Assembly: GCA_014859345.1 (NCBI GenBank)
Contig: JACUUL010000002.1
Location: forward strand, 391 to 64,390
DNA from: Thermoleophilia bacterium
Lineage (GTDB): Bacteria; Actinomycetota; Thermoleophilia; BMS3ABIN01
DNA: 64,000 nucleotides
Direction: 5' to 3'
Numbering within the stretch: position 1 is the first letter of the stretch; each line of letters begins with the position of its first letter. Made by a program: the position numbers and the translations under genes. The notes beneath the pieces are model-generated. The model was not told the origin of the DNA. It ran no database searches and saw only the letters and a list, made by a program, of their open reading frames with translations. This document shows, one piece after another, positions 35,070-39,290 of the stretch.

Positions 35070-35098
35070 TGGACAAGCGCGAAACAACGGAATATGAT
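35070..35098 (+). promoter_or_regulatory. Sigma-A type promoter of the methyltransferase gene
   Basis: TGGACA-17 nt-TATGAT. Confidence 0.55.
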
Positions 35099-35155
35099 GA
35101 GTGTGCGTTCACTTTGAGCGAGAATGTCTTCGCTCCCTCGCATACGGAGTGACCC

Positions 35156-35902
35156 TTGGACGAGAAACGGACAGAGGAACTGCGCGGCGCTGTCCTTAAA
35201 GCGTATTCCGCGGCGGCGGAACATCCTGACGGGACCCATCCTTTTCCCGTGGGCCGCAAGTTTGCCCTGAGCATCGGATACAGCGAAGAGCTGCTGGCGA
35301 GCCTCCCCGGAATTGCAGTCGATTCTTTTGCCGGCGTTACCAACCTGTCGGTCTCAGCCGGGATTCCACCGAAAAGCAAGGTTCTGGACCTCGGCTGCGG
35401 CGCCGGTCTGGACTCGCTGATTGCGGCCAGGCGTGCGGGACCGGACGGGTGGGTGGCAGGCGTGGATTTCAGTGGGAGCATGCTGGATCGGGCCCGCCAC
35501 GCGGCCAAGGAAGCCGGGCTTGACAACGTTGATTTTTATCTTGCCGATGCCGAGTCGCTGCCTTTTCCTGACGGGCTCTTCGACGTGGCGCTGGTTAACG
35601 GCATCTTCAATTTGAATCCGCGGCGGGACAAGATCATTAGGGAACTATACCGGGTGATGAAGCCTGGGGGCACGGCTTTCATAGCCGAAATCATCCTCAA
35701 GCAGCCGCTGGCGCCTGCGCCTGGCGAGGAGGGCAGCAACGTGAACTGGTTTGCCTGAATCGCCGGAGCCAAGGAGGGAGGATCCTTCCTGGAGGAGTTT
35801 CACTCGGCAGGATTCAGCAGAGCCGAGATTCTCAGGAGATTTCGCAATGACCGCACCATAAACTGCAATGTGGAGGCGGTTGAGCTGAAGCTGACTCGCT
35901 AA
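35156..35902 (+). CDS. ArsM-like class I SAM methyltransferase, probable selenoprotein (TGA 35756-35758 = Sec201)
   Basis: SAM motif VLDLGCGAGLD, GVDFS, FDVALVNGIFNL, VMKPGG; TGA in NWFA*IAGA at the ArsM WxxCIAGA Cys position; frame continues 47 codons to TAA 35900-35902; hairpin just 3' of the TGA. Confidence 0.85.
35769..35792 (+). promoter_or_regulatory. Bacterial SECIS element candidate
   Basis: CC-A-AGGAGGGA-GGA-TCCTTCCT-GG: 8-bp stem with one G-U pair plus a CC/GG extension; G-starting apical loop 21 nt after the UGA. Confidence 0.75.
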
Positions 35903-35981
35903 GGCTCTTGAATCGCCGTGCGCCCGGTGGCCACGGCCTGTCGTTTGCCACACAGAAAGGGCCGGGCCGGTGCCCGAGGCC

Positions 35982-36179
35982 TTATTCTTCCTCTTCAAAA
36001 GTGATGGCGTCCTCCGGGCAGTTCTCCACCGCCGCTTCGACGCAGGCTTCCAGGCCGGCCAGGTCGGTGGCTATTACGTATGAAAGTCCGTCCTCGCGCA
36101 CCTCGAACACCTCCGGACAGATAGCCTCGCAATTTCCGCAACCCTGGCAAAGGGACTGGTCGACCTTGGGGACACGCAT
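35982..36179 (-). CDS. Single-cluster ferredoxin
   Basis: KVDQSLCQGCGNCEAICPEVF...AVENCPEDAI; AAGGAAAGG RBS. Confidence 0.92.
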   Translation of the reverse strand: MRVPKVDQSLCQGCGNCEAICPEVFEVREDGLSYVIATDLAGLEACVEAAVENCPEDAITFEEEE

Positions 36180-36337: not shown

Positions 36338-38275
36338 GTGGCGCGAATGCCCGGTTTTACTGAAAAAACGGCAACCTGCTCGGGATTTTCCGCCGCCGGA
36401 CGACATCCGGTGATAATCTGGCTCGCTGCCGTTTTCGTTCTTTTCCTGGCGTCGGCTGTCACGCCGGATTCCGCCCGCGCCGTCTCCGCCGATGAGCCTA
36501 TCGCCGGTTTCTCTCCGGTCATGGCCTCGCAGCTGGAGGCCGAGCTGGCTTCTGTGAATCCCGGTCACGGATTTCCAGGCCTGTCCCAGATGTATGTGGA
36601 GTGGGGATACCGGTTTGGAATAAGAGCAGATGTGGCCTTCGCCCAGATGCTGCATGAGACCAATTACCTGAGATTTACGGGCGACGTCAAGGCGCATCAG
36701 AACAATTTCGCCGGCATAGGGGCTACTGGAGGCGGCAACCCGGGCAATTCTTTCGCGACCCCGGAGCTCGGCGTCATAGCCCATTACGCGCATCTGGCAT
36801 GGTACGTTTTTCCGGACCATGTCAATGAATTTTGCACCCCGCTTTACGATCCGCGCCACTTCGGCGACACCCACCGCAACTCAGTCCGCACCATCAGAGA
36901 CCTGGGCGGGCAGTGGGCGGTGCCCGGCACCGGATACGGCGACGCTATCGCCCGCATCGCTACCCGCATAAACAGCCGTCCGCCCAGCGGCTATGTTACG
37001 GGCAGTTTTAACGAGGTTCCGGGTACGCCCGCTGACAGGCTTTCCACTTCCTATTATTTCACCTGGTATGATTCGCTGCCGGCTCATAGCATGCTCAACT
37101 GGATCCTGGTTGGCAACCAGGGTATCGGCACCGCGCGGGTCCGCATCACTGTCGGTTCCCAGGTCATACACGACCCGGCGGATCCATCCCGTGATTATTT
37201 CAGCATTCCTTCAGGCGGCCGGATCACGCCCATGATCCCCAATATGATTGGCGGACCAGTCAAGGTTTTATCGCTTGACGGCCATCCCCTGATCGCCAGC
37301 CAGCGGGTGCTTTACCGCGACTCGTTCAATGAGGTGCTGGGCATCCGGGCCGAGGACCTTACCGATTCCTGGGAGTTTACCTGGTACGACTCTCTTCCCC
37401 AAAACGGCATGACCGGCAACTGGGTGCTGGTGGCAAACATGAGCGGGCAGCCTGCGGACGTTGAGATTCTGATCGGAGGAAGGAGAGTAGCGCTATATTC
37501 GGCCGCATCCGGCAATCCTTTGACGCCGGGGCAGATCGTAACGCCGGTATTTCCCGGAACCATGGCCGGACCGGTGCTGGTGCGCTCGACCAACCACCAA
37601 CCGTTGATAGCCAGCCAGCGGGTGCTCTATAAAGACAGCTTTACCGAGCTGACCGGCATGCCAACGAACAGCCTGGACAGCCAGTATTTTTTCACTTGGT
37701 ACGACAGCGTCTGGAGCAGCAACTGGGTGCTGGTCGCGAACCGGGGTTCTCAGCCCGCGGACGTGGACATACTCGTGGGAGGAGCGCTCAAGGCGCGTTA
37801 CAGCAGCGCCGCCGGCAACCCGATCCAGCCCGGGGCGATGGTGACGCCCGTCTTCCCAAACCTCACTGACGGTCCGGTGCGGGTAATCTCGCACAACAAC
37901 CAGCCGTTAATGGCGTCTCAGCGGATCATCTACCGGAACAGCTTCGAGGAGGTTCAGGGCGCGCCGCCCTCCCTTGTTCACCCCGAGCATCTCTTCACCT
38001 GGTATGATTCCAAGCTTATCAACTACATGCGCGGCAACTGGATTCTGGTGGCCAATCACGGATCGGGAGACGCCCGCGTAGAGATCTACATCGGCGGCCA
38101 GAAGATGAACGATCCCTCAAATCCGTCCAACAGCTATTTCACTATCCCGGAGGGCGGCCGCATAACGCCGCAATTTTATAATGTCATGGGCGGTCCGGTA
38201 CGGGTGGTATCGGTGACCGGCCAACCGCTGATGACCAGCCAGAGGGTGCTTTACAAGGATGGCCTGAGCCGGTAG
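36338..38275 (+). CDS. Secreted GH73 glucosaminidase-domain protein with four C-terminal ~105-aa repeats
   Basis: Signal-like hydrophobic segment; GIRADVAFAQMLHETNYL, QNNFAGIGA, DPRHF, LGGQWA; tandem FTWYDS...ASQRVLY repeats; start uncertain. Confidence 0.85.
   Translation: MARMPGFTEKTATCSGFSAAGRHPVIIWLAAVFVLFLASAVTPDSARAVSADEPIAGFSPVMASQLEAELASVNPGHGFPGLSQMYVEWGYRFGIRADVAFAQMLHETNYLRFTGDVKAHQNNFAGIGATGGGNPGNSFATPELGVIAHYAHLAWYVFPDHVNEFCTPLYDPRHFGDTHRNSVRTIRDLGGQWAVPGTGYGDAIARIATRINSRPPSGYVTGSFNEVPGTPADRLSTSYYFTWYDSLPAHSMLNWILVGNQGIGTARVRITVGSQVIHDPADPSRDYFSIPSGGRITPMIPNMIGGPVKVLSLDGHPLIASQRVLYRDSFNEVLGIRAEDLTDSWEFTWYDSLPQNGMTGNWVLVANMSGQPADVEILIGGRRVALYSAASGNPLTPGQIVTPVFPGTMAGPVLVRSTNHQPLIASQRVLYKDSFTELTGMPTNSLDSQYFFTWYDSVWSSNWVLVANRGSQPADVDILVGGALKARYSSAAGNPIQPGAMVTPVFPNLTDGPVRVISHNNQPLMASQRIIYRNSFEEVQGAPPSLVHPEHLFTWYDSKLINYMRGNWILVANHGSGDARVEIYIGGQKMNDPSNPSNSYFTIPEGGRITPQFYNVMGGPVRVVSVTGQPLMTSQRVLYKDGLSR
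37001..38260 (+). repeat. Four degenerate tandem protein repeats of about 303-320 nt
   Basis: Units start near 37001, 37319, 37634 and 37937: SFxE..G...FTWYDS...NW(I/V)LV(G/A)N...TP...GPV.V.S...PL.ASQRVLY. Confidence 0.85.
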
Positions 38276-38375: not shown

Positions 38376-39290
38376 TTAGCGGCCGGGCTCTATGTGGATG
38401 ACAGTGTCAGTCTCATCGCCGAAAGTGTTTTTCAGCCGCCGCTCCACCAGCGAAGCGATGCGGTGGGAATCCTTGGTGGTCATCTGGGGCTCCACCAGCA
38501 GATGCAGGTCGATCCAGTAGCCGGCCTCGCTTCCCCGGGTGCGAATCTTGTGGCAATCCAGGAGGCCTTCGGCTTTGACGCTCATGCAGACCTCCTTCAC
38601 CCTCCCGGGGTCGATAATGGCCCTGTCCAGGAGCACACTCGAGGCTTCCTGCATGATCCTTACAGCCCAGTACGCGATTATAATTGCGATTATGCCGGCC
38701 ACGATAGCGTCCATCAGGGGATAACCGAGGGCGGCGGCCACCAGGCTGACTATTACCGACATCGAGACCCACACATCGCTCATTGTATGCCGCGAATCGG
38801 CTACGAGGAAATTGCTGTTTAACCGCCGTCCGGCGCGCCTCTCCGTCGAGCTGATGGCTATGTTAACGGCTATGGTCGCTATCATGACAGCGAAGGCGGC
38901 AACGCCGACGTCAGGTGCCTGCGGATGCATCAAACGGTCGATGACGCTGCGGCCGATCTCCAGAGCGGTGATAAGCAGAAGCAGTACGACGCCCAGACTG
39001 GCGAATGTCTCGAATTTGGTGTGGCCATAGGCATGAGACTCGTCCCGCGGCCGGGATGCCAGGGTGATGCCTATGATGCCGATGATATTTGACGAGCCAT
39101 CCATCAGAGAGTGAAAAGCATCCGCTACCATGCTGATAGAGCCGATACTGAATCCCACGCCCCCTTTGCCCAGTGCTACTCCAAGATTGGCCACCAATAC
39201 CCAGATGAGCACGAATCGGATGCGTCGATAGCGGCGTGCCTGCTTGCCGGAAATCTGTGCCGGACGGGCTTTCGGGCGTCTCGTAAGCAT
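38376..39290 (-). CDS. Cation diffusion facilitator (FieF/CzcD family) transporter
   Basis: ADAFHSLMD, HAYGHTKFE, ADSRHTMSD, HKIRTRGS, DLHLLV, IHIEP. Confidence 0.93.
   Translation of the reverse strand: MLTRRPKARPAQISGKQARRYRRIRFVLIWVLVANLGVALGKGGVGFSIGSISMVADAFHSLMDGSSNIIGIIGITLASRPRDESHAYGHTKFETFASLGVVLLLLITALEIGRSVIDRLMHPQAPDVGVAAFAVMIATIAVNIAISSTERRAGRRLNSNFLVADSRHTMSDVWVSMSVIVSLVAAALGYPLMDAIVAGIIAIIIAYWAVRIMQEASSVLLDRAIIDPGRVKEVCMSVKAEGLLDCHKIRTRGSEAGYWIDLHLLVEPQMTTKDSHRIASLVERRLKNTFGDETDTVIHIEPGR

What the first reader, a model, noticed from the sequence alone, without database searches (positions are those of the whole stretch)
35156..35902. Hidden selenoprotein: ArsM-like methyltransferase with UGA at the conserved Cys site and a SECIS hairpin
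Seen: the ORF track stops at TGA 35756-35758 (...SNVNWFA*), but the frame continues as IAGAKEGGSFLEEFHSAGFSRAEILRRFRNDRTINCNVEAVELKLTR* (TAA 35900-35902). Ten nt after the UGA is a hairpin CC-A-AGGAGGGA/GGA/TCCTTCCT-GG with a G-starting apical loop 21 nt from the UGA. Known: ArsM/AS3MT enzymes carry a WxxC(I/L)(A/G)GA motif followed by an AGF-containing helix, and bacterial SECIS elements lie directly 3' of UGA with a G in the apical loop. Inference: this is a 248-aa protein with Sec201. The other ArsM arsenic-binding cysteines appear lost (GCGNP is FAGVTNL, NCVINL is NGIFNL), so Sec would be the only thiol/selenol left at the ArsM sites. This points to a methyltransferase with a different metalloid, metal or thiol substrate. 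Standard gene callers would truncate it.
Basis: partly seen in the sequence, partly recalled or inferred. Interest (0 to 1): 0.9.

Follow-up and report, generated by a model that had tools for sequence, protein, structure and literature searches.

The report
Selenocysteine-containing ArsM-like methyltransferase gene
The gene really does encode a 248-residue methyltransferase whose in-frame UGA is read as selenocysteine, but arsenite-methyltransferase-like selenoproteins are already a catalogued family, so this is a correctly spotted, mis-annotated member rather than a new kind of thing.

Summary
ORF 35156-35758 ends at TGA and the same frame stays open to TAA 35900-35902.

Evidence that the UGA encodes selenocysteine:
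- All 80 of the 80 best homologous loci from many phyla carry TGA at the same codon, followed by a conserved coding tail.
- Rarer homologues have Cys there, and it aligns with the ArsM/AS3MT metalloid-binding Cys.
- A hairpin 10 nt after the UGA fits the published bacterial SECIS model. It is conserved, with compensatory changes.
- The genome holds selA, selB, tRNA-Sec and a Sec-type selD, and TGA is otherwise an ordinary stop.
- The tail supplies the last two strands of the methyltransferase fold.

The two other ArsM cysteine sites that could be aligned are indeed replaced. The protein also lacks ArsM's C-terminal domain and scores below every NCBIfam cut-off. It is therefore ArsM-like, not a proven arsenite methyltransferase, and its substrate is unknown.

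Sec-bearing ArsM homologues have been in the literature since 2007 and are covered by NCBIfam models for fused forms. Novelty is therefore modest: a new member of a known kind.

One side result: Sec forms were seen only in the clade that has lost the second arsenic-binding Cys.

The parts
35070..35098 (+). promoter-like site (TGGACA, 17 nt, TATGAT), 58 nt upstream of the start codon
   Evidence: 10 of 12 consensus matches. This is a consensus match only, not shown to function.
35146..35149 (+). Shine-Dalgarno-like GGAG, 6 nt before the TTG start
   Evidence: Read directly.
35156..35902 (+). full coding sequence of the 248-residue ArsM-like SAM methyltransferase selenoprotein (TTG start, Sec201, TAA stop)
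35756..35758 (+). UGA codon read as selenocysteine (residue 201, motif U-I-A-G)
   Evidence: TGA at this codon in 81 of 81 sequences, window included. Cys in homologues P0003, P0006, P0064 and in L115. It aligns with the ArsM/AS3MT Cys of GECL(A/G)GA.
35769..35792 (+). bacterial SECIS hairpin: 10 pairs with A35772 bulged and apical loop GGA 35780-35782
   Evidence: Folds (-13.0 kcal/mol). 93.2% of cells pair across 81 sequences, against 48-65% when the 3' arm is slid. 5 of 8 pairs show compensatory changes. Synonymous sites in the stem are constrained. It fits the model quoted.
35759..35899 (+). 47-codon tail after the Sec codon: helix 208-218 and beta strands 222-229 and 239-247
   Evidence: Conserved in 80 loci. 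In the AlphaFold2 model, pLDDT for blocks 201-248 is 88-98.

Best explanation
Window 35156-35902 (+) is one intact gene for a 248-residue class I SAM-dependent methyltransferase of the ArsM/AS3MT-like lineage. UGA 35756-35758 is decoded as selenocysteine (Sec201).

How decoding works (shown by comparison): the hairpin at 35769-35792 acts as a bacterial SECIS. It recruits SelB carrying Sec-tRNA(Sec) to the UGA, so translation continues for 47 more codons. Those codons supply the last helix and the last two beta strands of the Rossmann-like fold.

What the residue does (inferred): Sec201 sits where ArsM/AS3MT has the cysteine that holds the metalloid next to the SAM methyl group. The selenolate is therefore the substrate-holding residue. 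Because the partner cysteine (Cys174 in CmArsM numbering) and the redox pair are absent, the enzyme probably methylates a soft, selenol-reactive substrate that needs only one protein ligand. Candidates are an already methylated arsenical, a selenium or tellurium species, or a thiol-reactive small molecule. Inorganic As(III) handled by the four-cysteine ArsM cycle is less likely.

Steps shown here: gene structure, conservation of the UGA, the hairpin, the Sec machinery and the fold. Steps inferred: actual Se incorporation, SAM use and the substrate.
For: - The frame is open across the TGA.
- TGA sits at the same codon in 80 of the 80 best of 498 homologous loci, from Chloroflexota, Acidobacteriota, Planctomycetota, Methylomirabilota, deltaproteobacteria and others. 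78 of the 80 have 40-55 further codons before the next stop.
- The tail is conserved at protein level: G204, A205, F220 and N231 are invariant, and many other positions are over 90% conserved.
- Cys occupies the site in full-length homologues. In solved ArsM/AS3MT structures the aligned residue is the Cys of GECL(A/G)GA.
- Hairpin: 93.2% of cells pair against 48-65% for slid controls; 5 of 8 pairs have double changes (12 cells); 0 of 500 shuffles reach this.
- Third-codon-position entropy is 0.33-1.23 in the stem, 1.71 in the loop and 0.92-1.99 outside.
- The hairpin meets all four constraints of the published bSECIS model. These are a 3-9 nt loop, G in the first two loop positions, 16-37 nt spacing and MFE of -7.5 or lower. 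The observed values are GGA, 21 nt and -13.0.
- Paralogous Sec forms in related genomes carry different stems at 17 nt spacing, with loops GGA and GGUC.
- Sec machinery: selA and selB are over their cut-offs and adjacent to tRNA-Sec (anticodon TCA) on contig C38, and selD has its own in-frame TGA.
- TGA is a normal stop here: 15 of 38 long ORFs end in it.
- The AlphaFold2 model has pLDDT 93.2 and pTM 0.91, and strands 6 and 7 lie after residue 201.
- The 10 best Foldseek hits are all ArsM/AS3MT, with E 3e-16 to 3e-15 and TMq 0.62-0.74.
- The best NCBIfam hits are three known Sec-ArsM fusion families.
Against: - No direct evidence of selenium incorporation or of any enzyme activity.
- The hairpin of the single sequence is not energetically unusual (z = -0.35).
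- The 81 sequences are related, so the shuffle control overstates significance.
- The one Cys-form locus for which I obtained DNA (L115) still has the hairpin. Part of the stem's conservation may therefore come from the encoded KEGGAFL peptide or from recent Sec-to-Cys change.
- No Rfam family matches the region.
- Nothing here points to a particular substrate. There is no conserved gene neighbourhood in 80 loci: LysR 7, cation-efflux 6, MerR 5 and canonical ArsM 3 of 80. In the window the gene stands alone between pyrG and a ferredoxin gene.
- The protein scores below all curated NCBIfam cut-offs.
Confidence: 0.92

Rival explanations
1. The gene is a true arsenite methyltransferase (ArsM). 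It detoxifies inorganic As(III), with Sec simply replacing one of the arsenic-binding cysteines.
For: - Fold and sequence are closest to ArsM/AS3MT.
- JGI names many homologues 'arsenite methyltransferase'.
- The literature files Sec forms under ArsM.
- A canonical ArsM gene lies next to the homologue in 3 of 80 loci.
Against: - Only one of the conserved ArsM cysteines is kept. The review read (PMC6138428, passages) states that all four are needed for As(III) to MAs(III) and that the Cys174-Cys224 pair binds the metalloid.
- NF008823 scores 146.6 against a cut-off of 263.
- The ArsM C-terminal domain is missing. The protein ends at residue 248, and the alignments reach only about residue 249 of chains 377-383 residues long.
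- 5 of 5 genomes tested that carry a Sec form also carry a canonical ArsM elsewhere, which argues against redundancy.
- In this genome the Acr3 arsenite pump lies on another contig.
Confidence: 0.15
2. Translation stops at the TGA. The product is the 200-residue protein that gene callers predict, and the downstream open frame is an untranslated remnant or a nonsense pseudogene.
For: - This is how the gene and most homologues are annotated in public databases.
- The single-sequence hairpin energy is unremarkable.
Against: - 80 of 80 homologous loci keep the TGA and a conserved in-frame tail. A nonsense mutation would not be shared across phyla, and an untranslated tail would not stay conserved at protein level.
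- The tail supplies two core beta strands.
- Cys homologues read straight through.
- The Sec machinery is complete.
Confidence: 0.03
3. The TGA is read as a standard amino acid (Trp or Gly, as in genetic codes 4 or 25, or by near-cognate read-through), not as selenocysteine.
For: Some database homologues show W (P0004, P0005, P0008, P0194), R (P0128, P0266) or G (P0122, P0149, P0252) at the site. I could not see their DNA, except for L105, which has GGG.
Against: - TGA ends 15 of 38 long ORFs in this window, so it is a normal stop here.
- The genome keeps selA, selB, selC and selD.
- The SECIS-type hairpin is at the right distance.
- The aligned residue in homologues is overwhelmingly Cys, which is the usual counterpart of Sec.
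Confidence: 0.02

Closest known systems
Arsenite methyltransferase selenoprotein family (Sec motif UxxG). It is listed under NF008823/PRK11873 with representative WP_011987699.1 and reference Fomenko et al. 2007 Science. Peng et al. 2016 counted it in 39 organisms.
   Same: Same lineage and the same Sec position, U-x-x-G (here U-I-A-G), at the ArsM metalloid-binding cysteine. Sources: Table 1 of PMC13188914 (passages); PMC9312934 (passage); PMC2398784 (passage); PMC5029168 (table passage).
   Different: I could not obtain the representative sequence or the 2007 paper (not held). I therefore cannot say whether the published members share this protein's loss of the other cysteines or its short 248-residue architecture.
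NCBIfam Sec-ArsM fusion families: NF041537 (ArsM/AhpD), NF047649 (methyltransferase/UXPK-star) and NF041536 (ArsM/DUF2284). The 2026 review attributes them to Haft and Tolstoy 2025.
   Same: These are the best NCBIfam hits, at 195, 187 and 163 bits over the methyltransferase domain (residues about 3-228). They share the UxxG Sec motif.
   Different: All scores are far below the cut-offs (510, 460, 575). This protein has a single Sec and no AhpD, DUF2284 or UXPK-star tail; it ends ...ELKLTR. The Haft and Tolstoy paper was not held, so I saw only its listing in the review.
Canonical ArsM/AS3MT (CmArsM 4FR0/4FS8, CrArsM 5EVJ, human AS3MT 8XT7)
   Same: N-terminal helical region plus class I SAM methyltransferase fold. 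The motif W/G-x-C/U-(I/L)-(A/G)-G-A is followed by an AGF helix.
   Different: - Cys72-equivalent is Val.
- Cys174-equivalent is Gly.
- There is no N-terminal Cys.
- The C-terminal domain of about 100 residues is missing.
- The protein scores below the NF008823 cut-off.

Cysteine numbering and roles are taken from PMC6138428 (passages).
Bacterial SECIS consensus model (Zhang and Gladyshev, as summarised in PMC13188914 section 5)
   Same: All four constraints are met: a 3-nt loop, GG at the loop start, 21 nt spacing, and -13.0 kcal/mol.
   Different: The stem sequence is specific to this family (AAGGAAGGC / GCCUUCCU consensus). It is not represented in Rfam.

Membership tests
Bacterial selenoprotein gene (SelB/SECIS-decoded UGA) | In-frame UGA that aligns with Cys in homologues | tested here: met
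   - Cys in P0003, P0006 and P0064 and in L115, as TGT.
- 32 Cys forms among 111 NG-type representatives.
- The ArsM/AS3MT Cys aligns with the site.
Bacterial selenoprotein gene (SelB/SECIS-decoded UGA) | UGA and downstream coding sequence conserved in homologues | tested here: met
   80 of 80 loci have TGA, and 78 of 80 have a 40-55 codon tail. The tail is conserved at protein level.
Bacterial selenoprotein gene (SelB/SECIS-decoded UGA) | bSECIS stem-loop directly 3' of the UGA, meeting the four model constraints | tested here: met
   Model quoted. Observed: loop GGA (3 nt), spacing 21 nt, MFE -13.0. Covariation is shown. The single-sequence z-score is not significant.
Bacterial selenoprotein gene (SelB/SECIS-decoded UGA) | selA, selB, selC and selD present in the genome | tested here: met
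   - selB: 366 bits against a cut-off of 242.
- selA: 589 bits against 268.
- selD: 384 bits against 125.
- tRNA-Sec: 72 bits, anticodon TCA.
Bacterial selenoprotein gene (SelB/SECIS-decoded UGA) | Selenium actually incorporated at the UGA | not testable with these tools
   Needs 75Se labelling or mass spectrometry.
ArsM/AS3MT arsenite methyltransferase | Four conserved cysteines (Cys44, Cys72, Cys174, Cys224 in CmArsM) | tested here: not met
   Only the Cys224-equivalent is kept, as Sec. The Cys72-equivalent is Val and the Cys174-equivalent is Gly. There is no Cys in residues 1-41. The definition is taken from PMC6138428.
ArsM/AS3MT arsenite methyltransferase | Score over the curated NCBIfam NF008823 cut-off | tested here: not met
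   146.6 bits against a cut-off of 263; 139.4 bits in the genome search.
ArsM/AS3MT arsenite methyltransferase | ArsM-type fold (N-terminal region plus SAM methyltransferase domain) | tested here: met
   The Foldseek top 10 are all ArsM/AS3MT, with TMq 0.62-0.74. The model has pLDDT 93.2.
ArsM/AS3MT arsenite methyltransferase | C-terminal domain after the methyltransferase core | tested here: not met
   The protein ends at residue 248. The profile alignment covers chain residues 55-249 of chains 377-383 residues long. TM normalised by target length is only 0.50-0.57.
ArsM/AS3MT arsenite methyltransferase | SAM-dependent methylation of As(III) | not testable with these tools
   Needs an enzyme assay.
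NCBIfam Sec-ArsM fusion families (NF041537, NF047649, NF041536) | Score over the cut-off, and a second domain carrying further Sec residue(s) | tested here: not met
   195 against 510, 187 against 460 and 163 against 575 bits. The matches cover only the methyltransferase part of each profile. There is a single TGA in the frame.
Class I SAM-dependent methyltransferase | Pfam methyltransferase domain over the gathering score, and a seven-stranded fold | tested here: met
   Methyltransf_31 scores 98.8 against 27, Methyltransf_25 85.4 against 27 and Methyltransf_11 79.5 against 21.2. The model has seven strands. The motif I sequence DLGCGAG is read.

The most novel reading that the evidence does not exclude
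The Gly-for-Cys174 ('NG-type') clade to which this gene belongs may not be an arsenite methyltransferase at all. It may be a large, uncharacterised sister family in which a single selenolate (or thiolate) is the only protein ligand for the substrate.

In the sample examined, Sec usage is confined to this clade. Of 111 NG-type representatives, 57 end exactly at the site. None of the 34 canonical four-Cys representatives does. In the nearest subfamily Sec is almost universal: 80 of 80 loci. Genomes that carry it also keep a canonical ArsM, in 5 of 5 tested.

This would point to chemistry that needs selenium and one free ligand position. Examples are the final methylation of dimethylarsenite, methylation of selenide, methylselenol or tellurium species through a Se-Se or Se-Te bond, or covalent catalysis on an organic substrate.
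Probability: 0.35. Interest if true: 0.6.

Novelty: new member of a known kind. Interest (0 to 1): 0.3.

Why it matters
For annotation: this gene and most of its relatives are stored in public protein sets as 194-200-residue stumps that lack two core strands. NCBI-sourced copies are named only 'methyltransferase domain-containing protein'. None of the current NCBIfam models reaches its cut-off on the standalone form. A dedicated model would correct hundreds of species-level genomes; 498 relatives were found in one scan.

For biology: the enzyme keeps only the selenol at the ArsM active site and coexists with canonical ArsM. It is therefore a tractable candidate for a distinct metalloid or selenium methylation step in soil and sediment bacteria. 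No result here establishes what that step is.

Tried and rejected
- Rfam scan of 35600-36000 at E up to 10: only two chance-level hits and no SECIS family.
- Single-sequence fold statistics do not support the hairpin on their own.
- Gene-neighbourhood analysis of 80 loci with 1.5-kb flanks found no conserved partner. The largest clusters were LysR 7, cation efflux 6 and MerR 5 loci.
- I tried to test whether the hairpin disappears when the TGA is lost. A metagenome pattern scan for Cys forms returned only 2 stretches, one of them unrelated (L114). The one true Cys form (L115) keeps the hairpin. The one Gly form (L105) has lost it. With n = 1 each, this is inconclusive.
- A crude scan of the window for other TGA-joined frames gave 17 candidates. 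Apart from this gene they looked like antisense frames, and I did not follow them up.
I therefore could not measure the distance from Sec201 to the SAM site.
- I could not confirm that the W and R forms in protein databases are TGA read by another code, nor that the 57 representatives ending at W..$ stop at TGA. The TGA inference rests on the 80 loci and on L106-L108.
- I did not run complex prediction, the look-up of sequencing runs or read laying. None of them would show Sec insertion.
- Paper supplements are closed. The supplementary tables of the selenoproteome papers may list members of this very subfamily.
Full report
THE OBSERVATION

The mechanical ORF 35156-35758 (+) has a TTG start, 200 codons and ends ...SNVNWFA at TGA 35756-35758. 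Read with TGA as a residue, the frame runs on through IAGAKEGGSFLEEFHSAGFSRAEILRRFRNDRTINCNVEAVELKLTR to TAA 35900-35902. That gives 248 residues with the UGA as residue 201.

A GGAG lies 6 nt before the TTG. A promoter-like site lies at 35070-35098. The gene stands alone between a divergent CTP synthase gene and a convergent small ferredoxin gene. Its G+C content matches its surroundings.

The stem spans 35769-35779 and 35783-35792, with A35772 bulged and loop GGA at 35780-35782. It begins 10 nt after the UGA, and the loop begins 21 nt after it. It folds at -13.0 kcal/mol. Judged on this one sequence it is not special: z = -0.35, and 59 of 200 shuffles fold as well.

IS THE UGA A SEC CODON?

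Truncated homologues. A protein search with the read-through product listed 120 best hits.
- One is the window's own 200-aa stump.
- Six cover at least 96% of the query.
- 113 cover only 73-82%.

I aligned 15 of these. Eight of the nine short ones end exactly at ...WFA. Three full-length ones have Cys at the next position and three have Trp, and all six continue with I(A/S/T)GAKEGxxFLxEFxxxGF.

DNA evidence. A scan of one genome per species found 498 loci encoding relatives, of which the best 80 were kept. All 80 have TGA at this codon (interim counts). In 78 of the 80 there are 40-55 further in-frame codons before the next stop. The exceptions are L055 with 28 and L075 with 59. The tail is conserved at protein level.

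The loci come from Chloroflexota, Acidobacteriota, Planctomycetota, Methylomirabilota, Nitrospirota, deltaproteobacterial and other bins. A shared nonsense mutation or an assembly error is therefore excluded.

The genome's decoding apparatus.
- TGA is an ordinary stop here: 15 of 38 long ORFs in the window end with it.
- selA and selB sit next to a tRNA-Sec (anticodon TCA) on contig C38.
- selD carries its own in-frame TGA.

THE HAIRPIN AS A SECIS

I aligned the 63 nt from the TGA onwards in 81 sequences. No gaps were needed. The helix pairs columns 17-24 with columns 28-35.
- 93.2% of cells pair, against 48-65% when the 3' arm is slid by 1-3 columns.
- 5 of 8 pairs show changes on both sides (12 cells).
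- No shuffle out of 500 reaches any of the five measures.
- The sequences are related, so the shuffle figure overstates the case. The slid control does not have that problem.

Synonymous sites show the same pattern. Third codon positions inside the stem have entropies of 0.33-1.23 bits. The third position in the loop has 1.71 bits, and the fourteen outside the stem have 0.92-1.99 bits.

The window's own hairpin carries one of the compensatory variants: the closing C-G pair is replaced by A-U, at the cost of an Ala-to-Ser change (read).

The element meets all four constraints of the bacterial SECIS model as quoted in the 2026 review (section 5 read in full).

Three more distant Sec-type paralogues in related genomes have unrelated stem sequences. 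In two of them the loop begins 17 nt after the UGA and reads GGA or GGUC.

Counter-evidence:
- The one Cys-form locus for which I could get DNA still has the hairpin.
- The one Gly-form locus (GGG at the site, in the nearest relative of this genome) has lost it.
- With one case each, this natural control is inconclusive.
- Rfam has no matching family.

WHAT THE PROTEIN IS

Domain content. Pfam finds a class I SAM methyltransferase domain.

Structure. With an 82-sequence alignment, AlphaFold2 gives pLDDT 93.2 and pTM 0.91. The model has seven beta strands, and the last two (222-229 and 239-247) plus helix 208-218 lie after residue 201. The 200-residue stump would therefore lack two core strands.

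Fold neighbours. The ten best Foldseek matches in the PDB are all ArsM or AS3MT, with E 3e-16 to 3e-15 and TMq 0.62-0.74.

The cysteine sites. HMMER alignments to those chains place Sec201 on the Cys of GECL(A/G)GA, Gly149 on the Cys of NCV(I/C)NL, and Val61 on the Cys of F(W/Y)GCG. The last of these is Cys72, because the C72A mutant chain 5EG5 shows Ala there.

A review of arsenic resistance (PMC6138428, passages read) makes three relevant statements:
- All four conserved cysteines are needed for As(III) to MAs(III).
- Cys174 and Cys224 hold the metalloid.
- Dimethylarsenite is held weakly by Cys224 alone.

This protein keeps only the Cys224-equivalent, as Sec. Its other two cysteines are the motif I Cys81, which is common to many methyltransferases, and the unconserved Cys236. 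It also lacks ArsM's C-terminal domain. It scores 146.6 bits against the NF008823 cut-off of 263.

Conclusion on membership: it works in an ArsM-like frame but fails the ArsM membership test.

COMPARISON WITH WHAT IS KNOWN

Its best NCBIfam hits are three curated selenoprotein families that fuse an ArsM-like domain to AhpD, DUF2284 or a UXPK-star tail. All three score far below their cut-offs, because this protein has only the methyltransferase part.

Table 1 of a 2026 review lists 'Arsenite methyltransferase, NF008823, UxxG, 1 Sec' among experimentally verified families, with Fomenko et al. 2007 as its reference. It also lists the three fusion families, with Haft and Tolstoy 2025 as their reference (passages and reference list read). 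A 2022 review and a 2008 paper mention the same family (passages). A 2016 survey counted it in 39 organisms (table passage).

I could not read the 2007 or 2025 papers. I therefore cannot say whether the published members share the cysteine losses.

The kind is known. This gene is an unannotated member. The standalone subfamily is not caught by any current curated model.

BROADER PATTERN (SIDE RESULT)

A full HMMER search of 1.84 billion cluster representatives gave 155 proteins at E of 1e-30 or lower. I classified the best 150 by BLAST alignment to the query.

| Type | Number | Residue or state at the Sec site |
|---|---|---|
| NG-type (Gly at the Cys174-equivalent) | 111 | 57 end exactly at the site, 32 Cys, 3 Gly, 2 Arg, 1 Trp, 16 unresolved (fragments or frameshifts) |
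| Canonical (Cys at the Cys174-equivalent) | 34 | 33 Cys, 1 Thr, none truncated |
| Neither | 5 | not classified further |

That the truncated ones stop at TGA is inferred from the loci whose DNA I did see.

Named Cys-form members carry only generic names, 'methyltransferase domain-containing protein' or, from JGI, 'arsenite methyltransferase'.

In five genomes that hold a Sec form, a canonical ArsM over the curated cut-off is also present elsewhere, together with one to three TGA-bearing paralogues each. The window's own genome has a single copy and no canonical ArsM over the cut-off. It does have an Acr3 pump on another contig.

Among 30 relatives of this genome, the closest homologue is 52% identical and carries Gly at the site, whereas loci from other phyla reach 53-63% identity. 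The gene's distribution is therefore patchy.

MECHANISM AND VERDICT

Shown:
- An intact gene.
- A UGA conserved at a catalytic-site Cys position.
- A conserved, covarying hairpin at SECIS distance.
- A complete Sec machinery.
- A tail that is structurally required.

Inferred:
- SelB-dependent Sec insertion.
- SAM-dependent methyl transfer.
- A substrate held by the single selenolate.

I put 0.92 on the selenoprotein reading. On function, I put about 0.15 on a true As(III) methyltransferase and about 0.35 on a distinct single-ligand substrate class.

This is a correct identification of a mis-annotated member of a catalogued selenoprotein family.

Noticed in passing
L105:1469-1531 (genome G007, same family as the window's genome): The nearest homologue among this genome's relatives (52% identity) has GGG (Gly) at the Sec position. 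Its 5' hairpin arm is altered so the stem no longer folds. This may be a Sec-to-Gly derivative of uncertain activity.
   Followed up: partly
proteins P0122-P0271: Truncation at the Sec site was seen only in homologues with Gly at the ArsM Cys174-equivalent (57 of 111). It was never seen in the 34 canonical four-Cys ArsM representatives.
   Followed up: partly
genomes G031-G035 (reached through L050, L026, L064, L052, L071): All five genomes that carry a Sec form also carry a canonical ArsM over the NF008823 cut-off at a distant locus. They also hold one to three TGA-bearing ArsM-like paralogues each.
   Followed up: no
own genome, G000:C38:2555-6423 and G000:C13:13022-13954: selA, selB and tRNA-Sec form one cluster. 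selD has an in-frame TGA, so SelD is itself a selenoprotein here.
   Followed up: partly
window 36338-38275 (+): This is a 645-residue protein with an N-terminal glucosaminidase-like domain. It is followed by about five repeats carrying an FTWYDS ... NW(I/V)LVAN motif that matched no Pfam family.
   Followed up: no
L106:2068, L107:2077, L108:2074 (genomes G021, G002, G023): More distant Sec-type ArsM-like paralogues (33-40% identity; motifs W-T-G-U-I-A-G-A and W-S-D-U-I-G-G-A) also have Gly at the Cys174-equivalent. L106 and L107 have their own hairpins, with loops GGA and GGUC beginning 17 nt after the UGA.
   Followed up: partly
L055 (Methylomirabilota bin): This homologue has only 28 codons after the TGA. 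Its tail jumps from ...GFREAT to VYARR, which suggests an internal deletion of about 20 codons.
   Followed up: no
window 38376-39290 (-): A cation diffusion facilitator gene lies 2.5 kb downstream. Cation-efflux genes also flank 6 of 80 homologous loci and MerR regulators flank 5 of 80. This is a faint link to metals, not a conserved operon.
   Followed up: partly
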